A stretch of 64,000 bases of DNA. Origin: a virus. Its lineage: Duplodnaviria; Heunggongvirae; Uroviricota; Caudoviricetes. Below the pieces are notes generated by a model. It was not told where the DNA came from, searched no databases, and worked only from the letters and a program-made list of their open reading frames with translations. Both the position numbers and the translations under genes were made by a program. This document shows positions 24,169 through 41,113 of this stretch, piece after piece (the stretch's first letter is position 1; every line of letters begins with the position of its first letter). The stretch lies in the IMG/VR virus record IMGVR_UViG_2778261161_000002; one strand, written 5' to 3'.

Positions 24169-24492
24169 GTGGTTAAGTCAAACATCCCGGCGTTAATTGT
24201 TAACTGGTTAACGTCACCTGGAGGCACCAGGCACCGCAATCTAATAAAGTTTCAAGCAATGGGGTTTTTGTTGTCAGACTTCAGATATAGATGGTTGTGG
24301 AAGGAGAGCCTGTACATAGTGCAGTTATTTCTTCCGCTATTTGTCTGCTTTGTCATGCTTCCTGAGCTGAAATACGCAATTTCAGACACTTTAAGCACTA
24401 TCGTTACTTTTGTGTTTTATCTTTACTTTGATTACTTATTGAGCACTAAAATCAATGAATTATCCGAGGAAATGCAAGGTGGCTGTAAGTGA
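24169..24492 (+). CDS. small hydrophobic protein in tRNA island (start uncertain, possibly 24259)
   Basis: AT-rich ORF with two hydrophobic helices. Confidence 0.3.
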   Translation: MVKSNIPALIVNWLTSPGGTRHRNLIKFQAMGFLLSDFRYRWLWKESLYIVQLFLPLFVCFVMLPELKYAISDTLSTIVTFVFYLYFDYLLSTKINELSEEMQGGCK

Positions 24493-26235: not shown

Positions 26236-26628
26236 ATGGAACAAATCAGCAGCGCAGAAATTGCGGATATCATGATCAGGGCTGACTGCTATCTGACAGT
26301 CACTGAAATTACCACTCTCGCCAAAGAAAAATACCCTCATCTCCATGTTTCACGAGTAAGTGTAACTAACATCATTCGTCATTTTGTTCGTTCAAGCAGG
26401 GCAATCTGTGAGCTGGATGATCGTGTGTATCCACGAAAATACTGGCTACATGGTCTGAACGGATATCAGTTCAAGGTGCGCGGGCGCACGCCTGAATACG
26501 GTAGCTTACTGGTTAAAAACTGTAGCAGGAAATCAGTCGAACAGGCGCGAAAAGAGCAACGAGAGCTGGTGGACATGGCGAATAAGCTGTGGAATGCCGC
26601 CGTTAAAAAGCGTGGTGTTGCTTTATGA
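26236..26628 (+). CDS. lpa: Lpa-like late promoter activator (positional)
   Basis: 130 aa basic protein overlapping the start of pacA, as gene 10/lpa does in P1. Confidence 0.45.
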   Translation: MEQISSAEIADIMIRADCYLTVTEITTLAKEKYPHLHVSRVSVTNIIRHFVRSSRAICELDDRVYPRKYWLHGLNGYQFKVRGRTPEYGSLLVKNCSRKSVEQARKEQRELVDMANKLWNAAVKKRGVAL

Positions 26629-27989
26629 GTCTGGTTAATTGGGAGGAGCACCGCGCCCGCTTTATAGCGTTGCGTGAAGAAAAAGGGATCACTGTAAAGG
26701 AATACTGTGAGGAGCATGGCCTTAGCTTCAATACAGCCAGAAAGCATCTCAATATGAAAAAAAATGAGGTGCGGTCGCAGGTAAAGACAACAAAAAAAAG
26801 CACCAAATCACCTGAAAAAAAACGGGCGGGAAGAGCAACAAAAAAGCTGGAAGAGGGCGCAGAAAAAACAAAATTTACAGAAATTGACAATTCGCAGGGT
26901 GCAGGTTCTTTCCGAAGTATGCCAAGAAAGAAAACTCCGGATCATGAAAGTAATACCAATAATAACAATGAGATAAAAGAATCTGTCAGGAGATCATTGC
27001 GCGAAAAAATGGCGAAAATGATCCCCGAAGAAGATAAAAGCGCCCCAAAAATTGAGGGATCTTCAGCAATGATCCCTGGCGGTGCTGTGCAACGTGCCAC
27101 ATTGCCCACTACGAATGTGGCTCGCGACATGATGAAGAACGGCGCAGAAGAACACCTGCGGTTAGCAATTCAAATGGCGCAAGAGCGCGCACTTCAGTAT
27201 CAAAGCATTGTTGATCAGGAGGCCGAACGTCTACAGGCGGAAATAGACGCCTTGGGCGATAAAGAGCCAGAAGGAATGCACCCTGGGCAGCGCCTTCTCG
27301 GTCTAATCAGTGACGCGGCCTACTACATGAATGATTTTATCAGTAGGTTGGCAGCTATATATCAGTCCGAACAAAAGCTGCGACAGGGGGATGAAAAGCT
27401 TCGTCAGAGCGCTCGCCAGCAAGCATTCAAAGAGGCTGAGGCCAGAGAAAAACTCGAATTAGCACGCCTACAGGCCGAACAGCGTGGCAAAGAGATTGAA
27501 TATCGCATTGGCGCTGACGCACGCGCAGCCAGAGTTATCGCCGCCGCTATACGTATGCGTGAGCGCGAGGAACTGGATGATATCGGTGTTGCTGAATACA
27601 TCGAGCGCCAGGGGGTCAGCGTCCCGGCTATCCTCGCGGCGCGCGCGGCGAAAGCTATCACTCTTCTCGAACCACCTGTTTCTGACGTCAATGATGTTGA
27701 TGATGAACAGCTGGACAAAGAGGCAAGGGAGTTTGCGACGCTTCAGGCTAACCATCCGCAATGGCTGGCAGAGCGCCGGGCGGATGTGGCAACCATTGTT
27801 GAAGAATTGGGGTGCGGAGATTACGACCGCAATGGCGAGCGTAAAGCTGGAGAATTCGAGGCCAACGACGAAGAGCTGGATATTGACCCTTCGGCAACGG
27901 CTGAAATTTACGGTGATTATGATGCATCTGATGCAGGGTATGACGCCGGAGATGATGATATCGCGATAGAACCGCCGGAGGATGATTAA
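26625..27989 (+). CDS. pacA: terminase small subunit-like (PacA-like)
   Basis: 454 aa, N-terminal HTH-like region, charged centre, acidic tail; immediately precedes the large terminase. Confidence 0.55.
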   Translation: MSLVNWEEHRARFIALREEKGITVKEYCEEHGLSFNTARKHLNMKKNEVRSQVKTTKKSTKSPEKKRAGRATKKLEEGAEKTKFTEIDNSQGAGSFRSMPRKKTPDHESNTNNNNEIKESVRRSLREKMAKMIPEEDKSAPKIEGSSAMIPGGAVQRATLPTTNVARDMMKNGAEEHLRLAIQMAQERALQYQSIVDQEAERLQAEIDALGDKEPEGMHPGQRLLGLISDAAYYMNDFISRLAAIYQSEQKLRQGDEKLRQSARQQAFKEAEAREKLELARLQAEQRGKEIEYRIGADARAARVIAAAIRMREREELDDIGVAEYIERQGVSVPAILAARAAKAITLLEPPVSDVNDVDDEQLDKEAREFATLQANHPQWLAERRADVATIVEELGCGDYDRNGERKAGEFEANDEELDIDPSATAEIYGDYDASDAGYDAGDDDIAIEPPEDD

Positions 27990-29524: not shown

Positions 29525-30562
29525 TTACCAGAGCTTCGCGGCGTACTGCGTTTGGGGGAATGTGTATCCGTAACGTTCTTCGATTGCTTTGCCGTATTTT
29601 TTACGAGCTTCATTCAGTTTAATGCCGGTCAGGTCGTCTCCAGAGGCCATCATTACGTCTAACAATTCCAGATCCATTTTATCCAGCCTTGCCATTGCTT
29701 CACGTGATGTACGTATCTTACGTTCAATGATATGGCGAATAGCCGGATCGGCATCCTCCAGCATCTTAGCGGATTTCTGCTTAAGGCTTTCATTGCGAAT
29801 ATCGATGTTCCTTAAGATGTACGACTTCGCAACGTAGCTTGGCTGGTGTTTTTCCAGGTCACGAACACGATATAAGTTAAAATCGCCGAGAAGGCTGCAA
29901 GGTACCGATTCGACGCCAGAATAAATTGTAATGCTCCGGCGTTCACCAACATTATTGACAACGGGGATCGTTGTCTTCGGTAGTCTTGCGAAAACCAATG
30001 CGCCATGTGCGCCAACTCTAAAGCGAGAAAGGGCATTGCTGCCTTCGATGTTTGTTGTCAGCACAACATCTGTATATGCCTCTTTACGCGCCCGGTAGAT
30101 CTCGCCTTCAGGCTCAGCTTCAAAGAAGCGCTGTTCTTCTTCAAGAGCACCTACGATTTGAGAAAAAACCCTATTTTTCAGGCTTTTCTTTATGATTTTG
30201 TCGTATTTTTTTAGCAATTGTTCACGTGTAAATGTACGTGTTGTTGTAGCGCTTTGCACAACGACATGCGTGCTTTGATTGGTGTCCTCAATGATGAATG
30301 GGATCGGAGAATATACAGACTCAACAATGTTCGACGCTTTGCCGTCGGCATCGCGGCACATGTCAACGAAGGCTTTCCATTCAGCAAGACATTTTTCAGC
30401 TTCTTCTAATATGTTTTGGTCATGCGTTAATGCAACATGGCGGAATTCCTCGCCAGCATAACTGGTATCATGGAAAACAGAGTTTGCGACCACCAGCTCT
30501 TTCCACCGTTCAGCGGTTTGCAGGAACCGTTTGTACTCTTTCTCGATCGACTTCTTACTCAT
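29525..30562 (-). CDS. hypothetical protein at immunity-region position
   Basis: 345 aa, transcribed from the rox side toward pacB; operator-like motif at its 5-prime end; no recognisable domain. Confidence 0.45.
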   Translation of the reverse strand: MSKKSIEKEYKRFLQTAERWKELVVANSVFHDTSYAGEEFRHVALTHDQNILEEAEKCLAEWKAFVDMCRDADGKASNIVESVYSPIPFIIEDTNQSTHVVVQSATTTRTFTREQLLKKYDKIIKKSLKNRVFSQIVGALEEEQRFFEAEPEGEIYRARKEAYTDVVLTTNIEGSNALSRFRVGAHGALVFARLPKTTIPVVNNVGERRSITIYSGVESVPCSLLGDFNLYRVRDLEKHQPSYVAKSYILRNIDIRNESLKQKSAKMLEDADPAIRHIIERKIRTSREAMARLDKMDLELLDVMMASGDDLTGIKLNEARKKYGKAIEERYGYTFPQTQYAAKLW

Positions 30563-30577
30563 TATTCCTACTCGATT

Positions 30578-30598
30578 TAGTTTTCTAACATAAAATTA
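30578..30598. promoter_or_regulatory. TTTTCTAACATAAAAT motif (operator-like site I)
   Basis: reads TGTTAGAAAACTAA on the minus strand about 20 nt before the 29525..30562 start; TTTTAGAAAA at 30664. Confidence 0.4.
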
Positions 30599-30771
30599 CT
30601 ATGACAAATTTATGTCGAATAACAGAGTGAGTAAAGGATCGAACTGTGATTTTTTGTCATCAATTTTAGAAAACCAACCGTAGAAACCACACTTCGCAAA
30701 TTAAAGACCATGAAGGCAACGTGTTACTGGTCATCATCAATCTATGATGGATTTAAAAAAATCGGCATTTT

Positions 30772-30805
30772 ATAACTTTAAATAATTGGCATTATTTAAA
30801 GTTAG
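30772..30805. other. rox-type recombination target site
   Basis: TAACTTTAAATAAT-TGGC-ATTATTTAAAGTTA; arms and (reverse-complemented) spacer match the rox site of phage D6 as recalled. Confidence 0.8.
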
Positions 30806-30956
30806 GCTATAATCATGTGTAGATGAACAGTGTTGACATCACTGAAAATACGTGCCTCGAATCAAAGGCTTGTATTTTGAAAATTAACTTATAGCTACCC
30901 TGTCATTTTTATATTTTTCGCGTAGCGTCATCTGTATATAGAGGTGTAATAGTTTC

Positions 30957-31985
30957 ATGAGTGAATTAATTATCTCTGGCAGTTCCGGTGGTTTTCTGCG
31001 CAACATTGGCAAAGAGTACCAGGAAGCCGCAGAAAACTTTATGCGGTTCATGAATGACCAGGGGGCTTATGCGCCGAATACTCTGCGCGACCTCCGGTTG
31101 GTGTTTCATTCCTGGGCGCGCTGGTGTCACGCTCGCCAGCTTGCCTGGTTTCCGATCTCACCAGAAATGGCCCGCGAGTATTTTCTTCAGCTGCATGATG
31201 CCGATCTGGCTTCGACCACCATTGATAAGCACTACGCCATGCTGAACATGCTGCTTTCGCATTGTGGCCTTCCGCCACTTTCGGATGATAAAAGTGTTTC
31301 TCTGGCTATGCGGCGCATCCGGCGCGAAGCGGCAACTGAAAAAGGCGAACGAACAGGCCAGGCTATACCGCTTCGGTGGGACGATCTGAAACTGCTCGAC
31401 GTCCTGTTGTCCAGGTCAGAACGGCTGGTGGACCTGCGCAACCTGGCTTTTCTCTTTGTTGCATACAATACGCTGATGCGTATGTCGGAAATATCGCGTA
31501 TTCGTGTAGGTGATCTGGACCAAACAGGTGACACTGTCACGCTACATATTTCACACACGAAGACAATAACGACCGCCGCCGGGCTTGATAAGGTGCTTTC
31601 CCGTCGCACTACCGCTGTGCTGAATGACTGGCTGGATGTTTCCGGGCTTCGCGAGCATCCTGACGCTGTGCTGTTCCCGCCGATACACCGTAGCAATAAG
31701 GCCAGGATCACGATAACGCCCCTTACTGCACCTGCAATGGAGAAAATATTCAGCGACGCCTGGGTGTTGCTGAATAAAAGAGATGCTACGCCAAACAAAG
31801 GAAGATACCGGACGTGGACCGGGCATAGTGCACGCGTCGGGGCCGCTATTGATATGGCTGAAAAGCAGGTGTCTATGGTGGAGATCATGCAGGAAGGAAC
31901 CTGGAAGAAACCGGAAACACTTATGCGGTATCTTCGCCGTGGCGGCGTGTCTGTGGGGGCTAATAGCCGCCTGATGGATTTGTAA
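30957..31985 (+). CDS. dre: Cre-family tyrosine recombinase (Dre-like)
   Basis: 342 aa; colinear with P1 Cre (WFP..PE, NLAFL..AYNTL.R..EI.RIRV.D, HSARVGAA.DMA); rox site 150 bp upstream. Confidence 0.9.
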   Translation: MSELIISGSSGGFLRNIGKEYQEAAENFMRFMNDQGAYAPNTLRDLRLVFHSWARWCHARQLAWFPISPEMAREYFLQLHDADLASTTIDKHYAMLNMLLSHCGLPPLSDDKSVSLAMRRIRREAATEKGERTGQAIPLRWDDLKLLDVLLSRSERLVDLRNLAFLFVAYNTLMRMSEISRIRVGDLDQTGDTVTLHISHTKTITTAAGLDKVLSRRTTAVLNDWLDVSGLREHPDAVLFPPIHRSNKARITITPLTAPAMEKIFSDAWVLLNKRDATPNKGRYRTWTGHSARVGAAIDMAEKQVSMVEIMQEGTWKKPETLMRYLRRGGVSVGANSRLMDL

Positions 31986-31989
31986 ATTA

Positions 31990-32020
31990 AATTTCTAACA
32001 CATCTTTTTAGATTAACATC
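31990..32020. promoter_or_regulatory. TTTCTAACA ... TTAACAT motif (operator-like site J)
   Basis: motif family member before the 32059..35983 operon. Confidence 0.4.
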
Positions 32021-32058
32021 TTTGCTGTAAAGTACCCTCGCCTATTTAGGAGGGTGCT

Positions 32059-32403
32059 TTGCAGAGTCAAATCACGGAATCAAGACGCTTCAAGGTGGAT
32101 GGTTACACCGTAACCTTCGCCGCTGGTGTTAAGAACAGTCATGCTGTCGTTGTGTTCGGCATCATGACCGGGCTTGAGGCCGTCCCTGTGTTTACCCTCG
32201 AAAAAAACTGGCGAAATCTGGAGGAAGCAGAAAGCTACGTCCGGAAAGTAACCATCATTGCCGCCGAAAAACTCCTGGCCCACTATCAGGAAAATTATCG
32301 CACTATGGTCGAGAAGATTAATCTCGCTTTCACTCGCCCCACTACCGGCTTTATTGCACCGGATACTAATGCAGGTCGATATCCTGCAAGGGGGCGTCGG
32401 TGA
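32059..32403 (+). CDS. hypothetical protein
   Basis: 114 aa ORF, first gene of operon. Confidence 0.45.
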   Translation: MQSQITESRRFKVDGYTVTFAAGVKNSHAVVVFGIMTGLEAVPVFTLEKNWRNLEEAESYVRKVTIIAAEKLLAHYQENYRTMVEKINLAFTRPTTGFIAPDTNAGRYPARGRR

Positions 32404-33381: not shown

Positions 33382-34083
33382 ATGAATTACATGACAACGA
33401 AAGAGCTTTTTAAGTTCCTTCCCAAATACAAAGCTCACAAAAACGTTAGTGCATCGAAAATCAAAAATGTTGTTATTTTCGGAGTAACTGCTTCCCCACT
33501 TTGGGGCTGCATCGAACTCGTTGAACCAAAAGGGGCAACAGTTTGTGTTGACGCAATTTTTTTACAAAAACACCGACCAAAAACTGGCGGGTATCTGATC
33601 GTTTATGAAAACGGTTATCTGTTCTATGCCCCGGAGAAACCATTTGAGCAATGCTATGGCCTGGTTAACGACGCCTCCGAAAATGGGGTATCGCTCAGCA
33701 TTGAAGGTCACAATGGGGTGACATTCATTACAGCCAGGGACGTAACTATTTCTGCTGGCGGTATCGCTACTCTACAAGAAGAAATCGACCTTGAAGCAGC
33801 CGACTTTTCTGACGCGCTGATGTGGCTGAAGGATGGCAAGAAAGTTGCTCGACGCGGGTGGAACGGCGAAAACCAATTCTGCTGGCTGGTTCCTGACAAA
33901 CAGGGTGCTTCAAGACTAACCCCTATAAAACATGCCGCAAACGGAGAGCTTGAAATCAATTTCGACTCTCCTCTTGCTCCTTATGGTGCGCATTTCGTTT
34001 TGAAAAATGCACAAGGTGTAGTTGTTCCATGGATGCCTTCTGTAGGTGACCTGCTGGCATGTGACTGGTTTGTAGTGGAGTGA
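33382..34083 (+). CDS. protein with C-terminal DUF2829 (Tad2-like) domain
   Basis: 233 aa; FSDALMWLKDGKKVARRGWNG ... VVPWMPSVGDLLACDWFVVE fits DUF2829 as recalled. Confidence 0.55.
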   Translation: MNYMTTKELFKFLPKYKAHKNVSASKIKNVVIFGVTASPLWGCIELVEPKGATVCVDAIFLQKHRPKTGGYLIVYENGYLFYAPEKPFEQCYGLVNDASENGVSLSIEGHNGVTFITARDVTISAGGIATLQEEIDLEAADFSDALMWLKDGKKVARRGWNGENQFCWLVPDKQGASRLTPIKHAANGELEINFDSPLAPYGAHFVLKNAQGVVVPWMPSVGDLLACDWFVVE

Positions 34084-39257: not shown

Positions 39258-40174
39258 TCCGCCTCCTGCGGCGGTTCTGGTAGCGGCATCCAGTGAGTTA
39301 CTTTCGATGCCGGTTCTTCCCCATCGTCAGTAACTGCCCACCATTTGTTTCTCGACCAATCGTAATACCCTTCGAAGGTATTGCACTCAGTCCAGCCGTA
39401 AGACTTACCCCAACACCAAACATACTGTTTATCGTTCGGCATTCGCTCACTACAGCTTATCCAACTATCCGGAGTTCCCGGAGAGTTGCCATTTACATCG
39501 AAGTTTGGCTCTGCGTCCTGAACCAGGAGGATGTAACCATTCTTGGCCGTATCAAGTTCTAACGCCTCGGTGACGGTGCCGAAATAGCGATTACCTAAAT
39601 CAGCATCACAAGTGCTTACATCAATGGAAACTTCCATGCCTTCGATTAATTCTGGCAAGTTGTAAGTTTGGCTTACAGGTTGGCTACCCTGAAGCATGGC
39701 AGCGTGGCAGGCTTCATCAACCATAGCTTCTACGTTTTCGAGAAGTACGTAACTGTACTGCTGCCCACTAACCCATTCTTTTCTGCGAGGTAATGCGCGT
39801 GGGTCCGCTACAATGGTTCGCAAACGTTCCAGAACAGCAGGCACTACCGGCTCTACTGCCAACTGACTGGCATATTTGTTAATGGTAACGATAAGCTCTT
39901 GCTCGGCCTCATCCAGACAATCACCGATACCTCGCCTGTCACCGTCAAAATCATCGAAATCGGCACGAATCCTGGCAACCTCCCGGATTGCGGACAACAC
40001 TTCACCAGGAATAAGCGGAGAGTTGCCCGATAGTACATTCTGCTCCAGTGATGCCAGAGCAATTCGTGCCAGTTCTTCCGCTTCTTCTGCTGGCAGTACA
40101 ACGTTGCTACCAGGTCCGTATGTTTCGCGCCACTGCTTGATTGTCAGCAGTCGCTCTTTGGTAATAGTGGTCAT
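39254..40174 (-). CDS. DUF551-like C-terminal domain protein
   Basis: 306 aa; C-terminal WISC...W.W...HWMPLPEPP pattern. Confidence 0.45.
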   Translation of the reverse strand: MTTITKERLLTIKQWRETYGPGSNVVLPAEEAEELARIALASLEQNVLSGNSPLIPGEVLSAIREVARIRADFDDFDGDRRGIGDCLDEAEQELIVTINKYASQLAVEPVVPAVLERLRTIVADPRALPRRKEWVSGQQYSYVLLENVEAMVDEACHAAMLQGSQPVSQTYNLPELIEGMEVSIDVSTCDADLGNRYFGTVTEALELDTAKNGYILLVQDAEPNFDVNGNSPGTPDSWISCSERMPNDKQYVWCWGKSYGWTECNTFEGYYDWSRNKWWAVTDDGEEPASKVTHWMPLPEPPQEAE

Positions 40175-40180
40175 AGTTAG

Positions 40181-40561
40181 TTACTCTCCATAGTCTAATT
40201 TAACAAGTCGGCATTTGAGATATCCAAAATTCTCTGGCTTGGCATCTCTTAAATAAAATTCTTCAGGGAGTTTCCCCCTTATTTTTAATCTGCATAATTC
40301 TGTAAAAAACAACCCCCTATGATTTACAGGCTCACAACGCGGCATTATCACAAACAACCCAATCCTGCTACCTGATATCACAGGACATAACGCGGCATCG
40401 TTAATTGTCGACATTTGGCGCTCCTGCAAGTTAGCCAGCAAACCATGTAAAAATAGTTTCCATGATTTAAATGTTGGAATTTTTATCACGTAATGTCGCA
40501 AAACTATTACTACACGCGTTGCACCACGCCGGTTAATATAAGCTCGCCTGAAGTTTGTCAC
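40181..40561 (-). CDS. hypothetical protein
   Basis: 126 aa ORF; start uncertain. Confidence 0.3.
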   Translation of the reverse strand: MTNFRRAYINRRGATRVVIVLRHYVIKIPTFKSWKLFLHGLLANLQERQMSTINDAALCPVISGSRIGLFVIMPRCEPVNHRGLFFTELCRLKIRGKLPEEFYLRDAKPENFGYLKCRLVKLDYGE

Positions 40562-40615
40562 GGTCTAATCTCCACCCTCTGAATCTGACAGAGTTCGCGG
40601 TGTGTTAACGCCATA

Positions 40616-41113
40616 TCACTCTCCTTTGATGCGAATGCCAGTGGTACTCATTCTCCTGATTTCCCAGAGCACACGAGGAACACCACCGTTTCCGACCGGA
40701 TCGCGTTTACTCCGCAGGGCGACGCTTGATTCCGCCCAGCTTTTTCTTGGAGGAAGCTCTTTCACACGAACAAAACCAGCTGCGCGAAGAGATGCTCCTG
40801 ATTCATCTGCCTGGGTGTACGTAATACAACGTTGATAACCCATAGCTTTTGCTGCCCGCCAGATAGCACCATAAAGCGCGCTGTTAGCGTTGCGTTCTCC
40901 TGTGGTACATGTGCGATTTACTTCAAGCGTTAATCCATCGTCCAAATGTCGTGCAACAGGTCTACCGGCTGTCGCCACACCTATCAATTCTCCGGCATCA
41001 TTTCTCAGACCAATGCTGAATTTATGCCCCACCGGGGGTTTATTGTGTCGGTGATGTCTGGATATAAACGCCTTCGCAACACGAAGAGTAACCGGTGAAA
41101 TCTGCACTCTCAC
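40616..41113 (-). CDS. GNAT-fold-like phage protein
   Basis: 165 aa, GTG start overlapping upstream stop; C-terminus GIRIKGE shared with upstream gene. Confidence 0.35.
   Translation of the reverse strand: MRVQISPVTLRVAKAFISRHHRHNKPPVGHKFSIGLRNDAGELIGVATAGRPVARHLDDGLTLEVNRTCTTGERNANSALYGAIWRAAKAMGYQRCITYTQADESGASLRAAGFVRVKELPPRKSWAESSVALRSKRDPVGNGGVPRVLWEIRRMSTTGIRIKGE

What the first reader, a model, noticed from the sequence alone, without database searches (positions are those of the whole stretch)
30772..31985. rox/Dre site-specific recombination module places the element in the D6 lineage
The 32-bp site TAACTTTAAATAAT-TGGC-ATTATTTAAAGTTA is the reverse complement of the rox site as I recall it, and lies 150 bp upstream of a Cre-family recombinase colinear with Cre. 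This is a heterospecific Cre/lox analogue and the strongest lineage marker in the window.
Basis: partly seen in the sequence, partly recalled or inferred. Interest (0 to 1): 0.4.

Follow-up and report, generated by a model that had tools for sequence, protein, structure and literature searches.

The report
Dre recombinase with its rox site

Summary
Confirmed and already known. A perfect 14-4-14 site, TAACTTTAAATAAT-TGGC-ATTATTTAAAGTTA, lies at 30773..30804, one base right of the stated start. It is unique in the window. It is identical, native flanking bases included, to the rox site annotated in phage D6 and used in published assays. A 342-aa ORF (30957..31985) starts 152 bp downstream. It is 339/342 identical to D6 Dre and 42% identical to Cre, keeps all six Cre catalytic residues, and shows dN/dS of 0.03 against D6.

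The gene order lpa-pacA-pacB-c1-rox-dre-orf-orf-dut matches D6. 55.2 of the 64 kb align collinearly with the D6 genome, mostly at 96-98% identity. The window belongs to the common D6-like phage-plasmids (subgroup P1-g2); the module was found in 144 PLSDB plasmids and 124 of 5426 complete E. coli genomes.

Most likely function, by analogy with Cre/lox: resolving plasmid-prophage dimers and cyclizing injected DNA.

Three side observations:
- A near-consensus promoter has its -35 on the rox spacer, and its -10 is invariant across 33 relatives, which suggests autoregulation.
- rox is a sharp mosaic junction between different c1 immunity alleles.
- The window's Dre carries a rare R163L change.

The parts
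30773..30804 (+). rox site: left arm 30773-30786 (TAACTTTAAATAAT), asymmetric spacer 30787-30790 (TGGC), right arm 30791-30804 (ATTATTTAAAGTTA)
   Evidence: Exact and unique in the window. Identical to the annotated D6 rox and to the published rox with its native flanks. The site lies 152-154 bp upstream of the recombinase ATG in all 35 related loci examined; 23 carry this exact sequence and 12 carry variants.
30786..30813 (+). Candidate sigma-70 promoter reading toward dre: -35 TTGGCA (30786-30791, spanning the rox spacer), a 16-nt spacer that is largely the right arm of rox, and -10 TATAAT (30808-30813)
   Evidence: 11 of 12 consensus matches, and the only promoter-like hit in 30450-32150. 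The -10 is invariant in all 33 Dre-clade relatives while neighbouring bases vary. Its function is inferred, not shown.
30833..30838 (+). Conserved TTGACA hexamer, a possible -35 of a second and weaker dre promoter
   Evidence: Conserved in 7 of 8 divergent sequences aligned. The scan found no good -10 partner. Speculative.
30941..30946 (+). Shine-Dalgarno-like GAGGTG upstream of the dre ATG
   Evidence: Read directly from the sequence. The TATAGAGG block is conserved in 7 of 8 aligned sequences.
30957..31985 (+). dre: Cre-family tyrosine recombinase, 342 aa. Catalytic residues R175, K202, H290, R293, W316, Y325.
   Evidence: 99% identical to D6 Dre. Best solved-structure match is Cre, E = 3e-69. 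PF00589 scores 58.6 bits against a cut-off of 27.1. Catalytic residues mapped against Cre. dN/dS = 0.03 against D6.
29525..30562 (-). c1 prophage repressor gene, the divergently oriented left neighbour of rox (context)
   Evidence: Annotated as C1 in D6 and in the near-identical plasmid. phrog_1678, E = 3e-170. About 98% identical to D6 at the DNA level.

Best explanation
This is the Dre/rox site-specific recombination module of a D6-like phage-plasmid (subgroup P1-g2) that lives as a plasmid of roughly 90 kb in E. coli.

From established Cre-family mechanism, and from published experiments on D6 Dre: one Dre monomer binds each 14-bp arm of rox, and four monomers synapse two rox sites. Tyr325, aided by R175, K202, H290, R293 and W316, cleaves and exchanges one pair of strands around the TGGC spacer. 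This forms a Holliday junction, which is resolved by exchange of the second pair. No accessory protein is needed, and lox sites are not recombined.

Inferred by analogy with P1 Cre/lox: in the element's life cycle, the module converts plasmid-prophage dimers back to monomers so they can be partitioned. It also circularises terminally redundant virion DNA after injection.

Inferred from sequence and conservation: a strong promoter has its -35 on the rox spacer and its spacer region on the right arm. Dre bound at rox probably represses its own transcription.
For: Shown here:
- The rox sequence is identical to the D6 annotation and to the published site.
- The protein is 339/342 identical to Dre.
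- All six catalytic residues are conserved.
- Purifying selection is strong: 28 synonymous against 3 non-synonymous differences from D6, dN/dS 0.03.
- The site sits 152-154 bp from the ATG in all 35 related loci examined.
- The c1-rox-dre-dut synteny matches D6.
- The window is collinear with D6 over 55.2 of 64 kb.
- 124 of 127 matching places in complete E. coli genomes are on plasmids.

From the literature:
- Dre recombines rox efficiently in E. coli with no cross-reaction with loxP, VloxP or SloxP (PMC3082901).
- The Cre active-site residues are conserved in Dre, and rox has a 14-4-14 layout (PMC4777119).
- Dre and rox were previously found in E. coli strains (PMC4957104).
- D6-like elements form the P1-g2 phage-plasmid subgroup, and Cre resolves multimers (PMC7969092).

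For the promoter.
Against: - No activity was measured for this allele.
- It carries L163, where D6 and all 33 Dre-clade relatives examined have R. An effect on activity cannot be excluded. However, Cre has L at the aligned position, and the same allele occurs in an independent human isolate.
- The dimer-resolution and cyclization roles have been demonstrated for P1 Cre/lox. To my knowledge they have not been demonstrated directly for D6.
- The autoregulation idea rests only on a consensus match plus conservation.
- The original Dre paper (Sauer & McDermott 2004) and the D6 genome paper (Gilcrease & Casjens 2018) were not available to check.
Confidence: 0.93

Rival explanations
1. The module is present but the recombinase is crippled: R163L, alone or with T253I and S342L, inactivates the enzyme, and the site is a relic.
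For: R163 is invariant in 33 of 33 Dre-clade relatives down to 70% identity, whereas the window has L.
Against: dN/dS against D6 is 0.03. All catalytic residues are intact. Cre itself has L at the aligned position 161. The L163 allele is carried by plasmids from unrelated sources: UK cattle and a human O111:H8 isolate from Idaho. I253 is a recurring natural polymorphism, seen in 4 of 35 loci. Residue 342 is the C-terminal residue.
Confidence: 0.04
2. The recombinase acts mainly as a phage integrase, inserting the element into a chromosomal rox-like attB, rather than as a plasmid resolvase or cyclase.
For: It belongs to the phage integrase family PF00589. 3 of 127 matching places in complete E. 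coli genomes lie on chromosomes. Published assays show Dre can carry out integrative recombination (co-integration assay, PMC4957104).
Against: 124 of 127 places are on plasmids of about 90 kb. The site is a simple symmetric 14-4-14 core with no additional half-sites anywhere in the window. The enzyme is a Cre orthologue by position and synteny. D6-like elements are classified as phage-plasmids.
Confidence: 0.02
3. The inverted repeat is a chance palindrome or simply an operator or terminator, unrelated to the neighbouring recombinase.
For: It overlaps a promoter-like element, so it could in principle be only a regulatory palindrome.
Against: It is exactly the experimentally validated Dre target. 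None of 100 shuffles gave a match. It stays at a fixed distance from the recombinase gene across relatives, and the 70%-identical relative L036 keeps both arms unchanged.
Confidence: 0.01

Closest known systems
Dre/rox of Escherichia phage D6 (AY753669, MF356679; Sauer & McDermott 2004)
   Same: The 32-bp rox is identical, flanking bases included. The protein is 339/342 identical. The spacing (152 bp), the orientation and the neighbours (c1 on the left, two small ORFs and dut on the right) are the same. The -10 TATAAT and the rest of the regulatory region are the same apart from 7 of 394 intergenic bases.
   Different: DNA identity is about 97%, with 31 nucleotide differences in the CDS, 28 of them synonymous by the Nei-Gojobori count. 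There are three amino-acid changes: R163L, T253I and S342L. The host element is a different D6-like plasmid, with a partly different accessory region at 33.4-47.5 kb.
Cre/loxP of phage P1 (AF234172)
   Same: Same fold family and catalytic residues, about 42% identity, collinear. Same genomic position next to the c1 immunity and pac region. An inverted-repeat site with an asymmetric spacer, no accessory proteins, and presumably the same biological roles.
   Different: The site layout is 14-4-14 rather than 13-8-13, with different arm bases, and the two systems are heterospecific (literature). In P1 the lox-cre distance is 418 bp, with the cra ORF and three annotated cre promoters lying outside lox. 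Here the distance is 152 bp, with no ORF and a promoter overlapping the site.
Panto/pox (Pantoea sp. aB) and other Cre-like tools (Vika/vox, VCre/VloxP, SCre/SloxP, Nigri/nox)
   Same: Cre-family recombinases, each with its own palindromic site near the gene. Panto is 52% identical to Dre, its pox arms differ from rox by one base, and Dre and Panto cross-react (PMC4957104).
   Different: The window's enzyme is Dre itself, not one of these. Loci L038 and L039 (56% identity; site TAACTTTATATAAT-GTCA-GTTATATAAAGTTA) may be Panto-like, but they lie outside the window.
Plasmid and chromosome dimer resolution by XerCD at cer/dif
   Same: Tyrosine-recombinase resolution of replicon dimers, to ensure segregation.
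   Different: Xer uses two host recombinases, plus accessory proteins or FtsK, and has topological selectivity. Dre is a single self-sufficient, phage-encoded enzyme.

Membership tests
Dre/rox system (phage D6) | Recombinase is orthologous to D6 Dre and much closer to it than to Cre | tested here: met
   339/342 identity to AAV84949, against 41-42% identity to Cre of P1, P7, SJ46 and RCS47.
Dre/rox system (phage D6) | 32-bp rox target: 14-bp inverted repeats TAACTTTAAATAAT around the spacer TGGC/GCCA | tested here: met
   Exact match at 30773-30804. Identical to the misc_recomb feature of AY753669 and to the sequence used in assays (PMC3082901; layout in PMC4777119).
Dre/rox system (phage D6) | Site lies immediately upstream of dre, between c1 and dre | tested here: met
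   The c1(-)-rox-dre(+) order and the 152-bp spacing match D6 and the 35 related loci.
Dre/rox system (phage D6) | Catalyses recombination at rox but not at lox, without accessory proteins | not testable with these tools
   Shown in the literature for D6 Dre. This allele differs at 3 non-catalytic residues, so activity is inferred.
Tyrosine recombinase / Cre subfamily | Catalytic R-K-H-R-W-Y set (Cre R173, K201, H289, R292, W315, Y324) and a two-domain, Cre-collinear architecture | tested here: met
   R175, K202, H290, R293, W316 and Y325 are present. PF00589 scores above its cut-off; PF02899 scores 21.6 bits, just under its 22.3 cut-off. The alignment to Cre structures covers residues 22-341.
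D6-like phage-plasmids (P1-g2 subgroup of P1-like elements) | Genome-scale similarity and collinearity with D6 rather than with P1 | tested here: met
   55,216 of 64,000 bases align collinearly with MF356679. The large blocks are 96-98% identical; the short accessory-region blocks are 88-96%. The D6 gene order is reproduced. The subgroup is defined in PMC7969092. A direct nucleotide comparison with the whole P1 genome was not run; only the recombinase was compared.

The most novel reading that the evidence does not exclude
rox is more than a crossover site. Its spacer and right arm form the -35 and spacer of a promoter conserved across the Dre clade, so Dre occupancy of rox would set its own expression level. 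This layout is absent from P1 lox-cre. In addition, rox is the point at which D6-like phage-plasmids exchange immunity (c1) modules through Dre-mediated intermolecular recombination. That would make the recombinase a driver of mosaicism as well as a housekeeping resolvase. I could not check whether the original D6 papers already describe the promoter.
Probability: 0.35. Interest if true: 0.3.

Novelty: already known. Interest (0 to 1): 0.12.

Why it matters
It gives a secure annotation. The window comes from a D6-like phage-plasmid, and this locus is its Dre/rox module. Dre/rox has been used for two decades as a genome-engineering tool orthogonal to Cre/lox.

The practical value lies in the natural variation seen around it:
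- a left-arm A9G rox variant;
- spacer variants GGGG, TAGC and TGGA;
- Dre relatives at 70-94% identity that keep the rox arms;
- a rare R163L allele.

These are a ready-made panel for studying Dre specificity, and possibly for new orthogonal site/enzyme pairs. The promoter-in-rox layout suggests a simple autoregulatory circuit that can be tested.

Tried and rejected
- **Secondary or pseudo-rox sites in the window.** None was found: the full site at up to 3 mismatches and the half-site at up to 2 mismatches gave only the known copy. Inversion or excision between two sites within the window is therefore rejected.
- **Is the window D6 itself?** No. It is about 97% identical at this locus, and 8.8 kb of the window is not alignable to D6.
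- **Is the window plasmid pRHB39-C21_3?** That record is 100% identical over 30600-32060. It is not the same overall: 99.7-99.9% identity, with window 39680-41108 absent from that plasmid.
- **Original papers.** Reading Sauer & McDermott 2004 (PMC534624) and Gilcrease & Casjens 2018 (PMC5800970) failed because neither is held. A literature search for a rox promoter or Dre autoregulation found nothing relevant.
- **P1-style Dam regulation.** There is no GATC between rox and the dre ATG in the window, although some relatives have one there.
- **P1-type pac site.** pacA holds only a modest cluster of 5 GATC in 135 bp, not the P1 array of TGATCA/G hexamers. It is left as a candidate.
- **Not run.** The large protein-database searches, structure prediction and fold search, because near-identity to a characterised protein made them unnecessary.

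Full report
**Observation**

The sequence TAACTTTAAATAAT-TGGC-ATTATTTAAAGTTA is present once in the window, at 30773..30804 on the + strand. The two 14-bp arms are perfect reverse complements of each other. No further half-site exists in the window at up to 2 mismatches.

A 342-codon ORF with an ATG start runs 30957..31985 on the + strand, leaving 152 bp between the site and the start codon.

**Identity of the site**

The phage collection returns only phage D6 for window 30600-32060, at 97.2% identity over the full query against AY753669. The match lies under the annotated features 'dre: tyrosine recombinase' and 'region of crossover (rox) site for Dre recombinase'. The base-by-base alignment shows the 32 bp to be identical to the D6 rox feature at AY753669 4909-4940.

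A paper that assayed the site prints it with its native flanking bases as '(A)TAACTTTAAATAAT TGGC ATTATTTAAAGTTA(G)' (PMC3082901). That is exactly what the window reads from 30772 to 30805. So the site is in the native D6 orientation relative to dre. The 14-4-14 layout is described in PMC4777119.

**Identity of the protein**

- The ORF is 339/342 identical to D6 Dre.
- It scores above the curated cut-off for PF00589.
- Its best solved-structure relatives are Cre chains (E = 3e-69, residues 22-341 against Cre 21-340).
- Against all phage records, only D6 is close at 99.4%. Cre of P1, P7, phiW39, SJ46 and RCS47 sits at 41-42%.
- Aligned with P1 Cre, the catalytic set R173/K201/H289/R292/W315/Y324 corresponds to R175/K202/H290/R293/W316/Y325, all conserved. 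These are the residue numbers published for Dre.
- The specificity positions highlighted by Karimova et al. (Cre K43, R259, G263) are R, P and K, as in D6 Dre.

The CDS differs from D6 at 31 nucleotides. By the Nei-Gojobori count, 28 differences are synonymous and 3 are not, giving dS 0.12, dN 0.004 and dN/dS 0.03. The gene is therefore under strong purifying selection.

The three replacements are R163L, T253I and S342L.
- I253 recurs in 4 of 35 related loci.
- Residue 342 is the C-terminus.
- L163 is rare. All 33 Dre-clade relatives, down to 70% identity, have R. However, Cre has L at the aligned position, and the L163 allele is also carried by plasmid pIDPH8234-1 from a human O111:H8 isolate in Idaho. 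It is a circulating allele and not an error.

**Context and lineage**

The local order is lpa, pacA, pacB, c1 (minus strand), rox, dre, two small ORFs, dut. It is the same as in both D6 records and in near-identical plasmids.

I assembled the D6 genome from two fetches and compared it locally. 55,216 of the 64,000 window bases align collinearly. The large blocks are 96-98% identical and the short blocks in the accessory region are 88-96%. The unaligned stretches fall between 33.4 and 47.5 kb, apart from a 241-bp gap at 24249-24489.

The module is common. 144 PLSDB plasmids hold it, 96 of them at 95% identity or more, mostly non-mobilizable replicons of about 90 kb from E. coli, Salmonella and Shigella. 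124 of 5426 complete E. coli genomes hold it, with 124 of 127 places on plasmids. Three plasmids from UK cattle faeces are 100% identical over this stretch. Over the 41 kb compared, though, the window is 99.7-99.9% identical to one of them, with one 1.4-kb indel.

The literature already places D6-like elements in subgroup P1-g2 of the P1-like phage-plasmids (PMC7969092). It had also already found Dre and rox in E. coli genomes (PMC4957104). The 'D6 lineage' reading is therefore supported, and nothing about it is new.

**How it most likely works**

From the established mechanism of Cre-family enzymes and published work on Dre: one monomer binds each arm, and a tetramer synapses two rox sites. 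Tyr325 forms the 3'-phosphotyrosyl intermediate. Strand exchange proceeds through a Holliday junction around the asymmetric spacer, which sets directionality. No accessory protein is required, and lox-type sites are not used.

The biological role is inferred from P1 (for multimer resolution; the rest is from my own knowledge of P1 biology). It is resolution of plasmid-prophage dimers before partition, and cyclization of terminally redundant DNA after injection. The placement is consistent with the second role. The site lies about 3.8 kb from the densest GATC cluster of the window, inside pacA, which is a candidate pac site. I did not establish that this cluster is pac.

**Regulatory anatomy (new here, inferred)**

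The only promoter-like match in 30450-32150 is TTGGCA-16 nt-TATAAT, with 11 of 12 consensus positions.
- The -35 hexamer (30786-30791) is the last T of the left arm, the spacer TGGC, and the first A of the right arm.
- The rest of the right arm fills the promoter spacer.
- The -10 (30808-30813) starts 3 bp after the site.

In 33 of 33 Dre-clade loci from IMG/VR, including one whose recombinase is only 70% identical, TATAAT is invariant at that position. The three bases before it and the bases after it vary.

Dre bound to rox should therefore occlude RNA polymerase, which would be a simple negative autoregulation. P1 is arranged differently: 418 bp from lox to cre, an intervening cra ORF, and three annotated cre promoters outside lox, with Dam sites. 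The window has no GATC between rox and the ATG. I could not check whether the original papers mention this promoter.

**rox as a mosaic junction**

The recombinase genes of IMG/VR loci L009, L014-L017 and L021-L023 are 97.5-99% identical to the window's at the DNA level. Their c1 genes are only 83.7% identical, and the difference begins at the base next to rox. Many PLSDB matches likewise start at query position 170, which is 4 bp left of rox.

A left-arm variant (A9G) occurs with this c1 allele in seven of those eight loci. L015 has the divergent flank but the canonical arm. The variant also occurs in L031-L033, which carry other c1 alleles or none that could be aligned. This is what crossovers in the spacer between co-resident elements would give. 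A module boundary maintained by selection would look similar.

As a consequence, Dre/rox marks the module and the P1-g2 group. It does not by itself mark the whole element's lineage. For this window, both flanks happen to be D6-like.

**Verdict**

The finding is real, correctly interpreted and already known. Interest is low. The side observations deserve a short follow-up but do not change the classification: the rox-embedded promoter, the junction at rox, the natural rox and Dre variants, and the R163L allele.

Noticed in passing
window 30786-30813: A near-consensus sigma-70 promoter (TTGGCA-16-TATAAT) overlaps rox. The -35 is the rox spacer plus one base on each side, and the -10 is invariant in 33 of 33 Dre-clade relatives. 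This suggests Dre autoregulation. P1 lox-cre has no equivalent.
   Followed up: partly
L009, L014-L017, L021-L023 (about 1305-1350 in each locus); window 30769-30773: There is a sharp identity break at the left edge of rox: the c1 side is about 84% identical and the dre side 97-99%. A left-arm A9G rox variant accompanies this c1 allele in seven of the eight loci. rox looks like a mosaic junction between immunity modules.
   Followed up: partly
L024, L033, L036, L038/L039 (site at about 1316-1349 in each): Natural rox variants occur: spacer GGGG (L024); TGGA plus a changed first base of the right arm (L033); spacer TAGC with unchanged arms beside a recombinase only 70% identical to Dre (L036); and TAACTTTATATAAT-GTCA-GTTATATAAAGTTA beside a 56%-identical recombinase (L038/L039, possibly Panto/pox-like).
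   Followed up: no
window 31443-31445 (codon 163 of dre): The window's Dre has L163, where D6 and all 33 Dre-clade relatives have R. Cre has L at the aligned position. The allele is also present in pIDPH8234-1 (E. coli O111:H8, Idaho).
   Followed up: partly
window 33382-34083 (+): A 233-aa ORF 1.4 kb downstream of dre has a C-terminal Tad2-like (Thoeris anti-defence 2) domain, PF11195, E = 2.7e-21. The D6 counterpart (orf114) is annotated as only the C-terminal half of the SJ46 homologue.
   Followed up: no
window 39680-41108: This segment is absent from the otherwise 99.7-99.9% identical plasmid pRHB39-C21_3. It carries two minus-strand ORFs: one of 126 aa with no Pfam hit, and one of 165 aa with a weak Mom-family hit below the cut-off.
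   Followed up: no
window 26940-27074 (inside pacA, 26607-27989): The densest GATC cluster of the window (5 sites in 135 bp) is a candidate Dam-regulated pac site, about 3.8 kb from rox. It lacks the P1-style array of TGATCA/G hexamers.
   Followed up: partly
window 30895-30946: A block of about 50 bp just upstream of the dre start codon (CTACCCTGTCATTTTT.TATTTTTCGCGTAGCGTCA...TATAGAGG) is nearly invariant even in relatives whose recombinase is 70% identical. It is more conserved than needed for an SD alone. Its role is unknown; it could be a second promoter, a 5'-UTR element or a binding site.
   Followed up: no
E. coli complete genomes: 3 of 127 matches to the rox-dre stretch lie on chromosomes rather than plasmids. 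I did not examine whether these are integrated D6-like elements.
   Followed up: no
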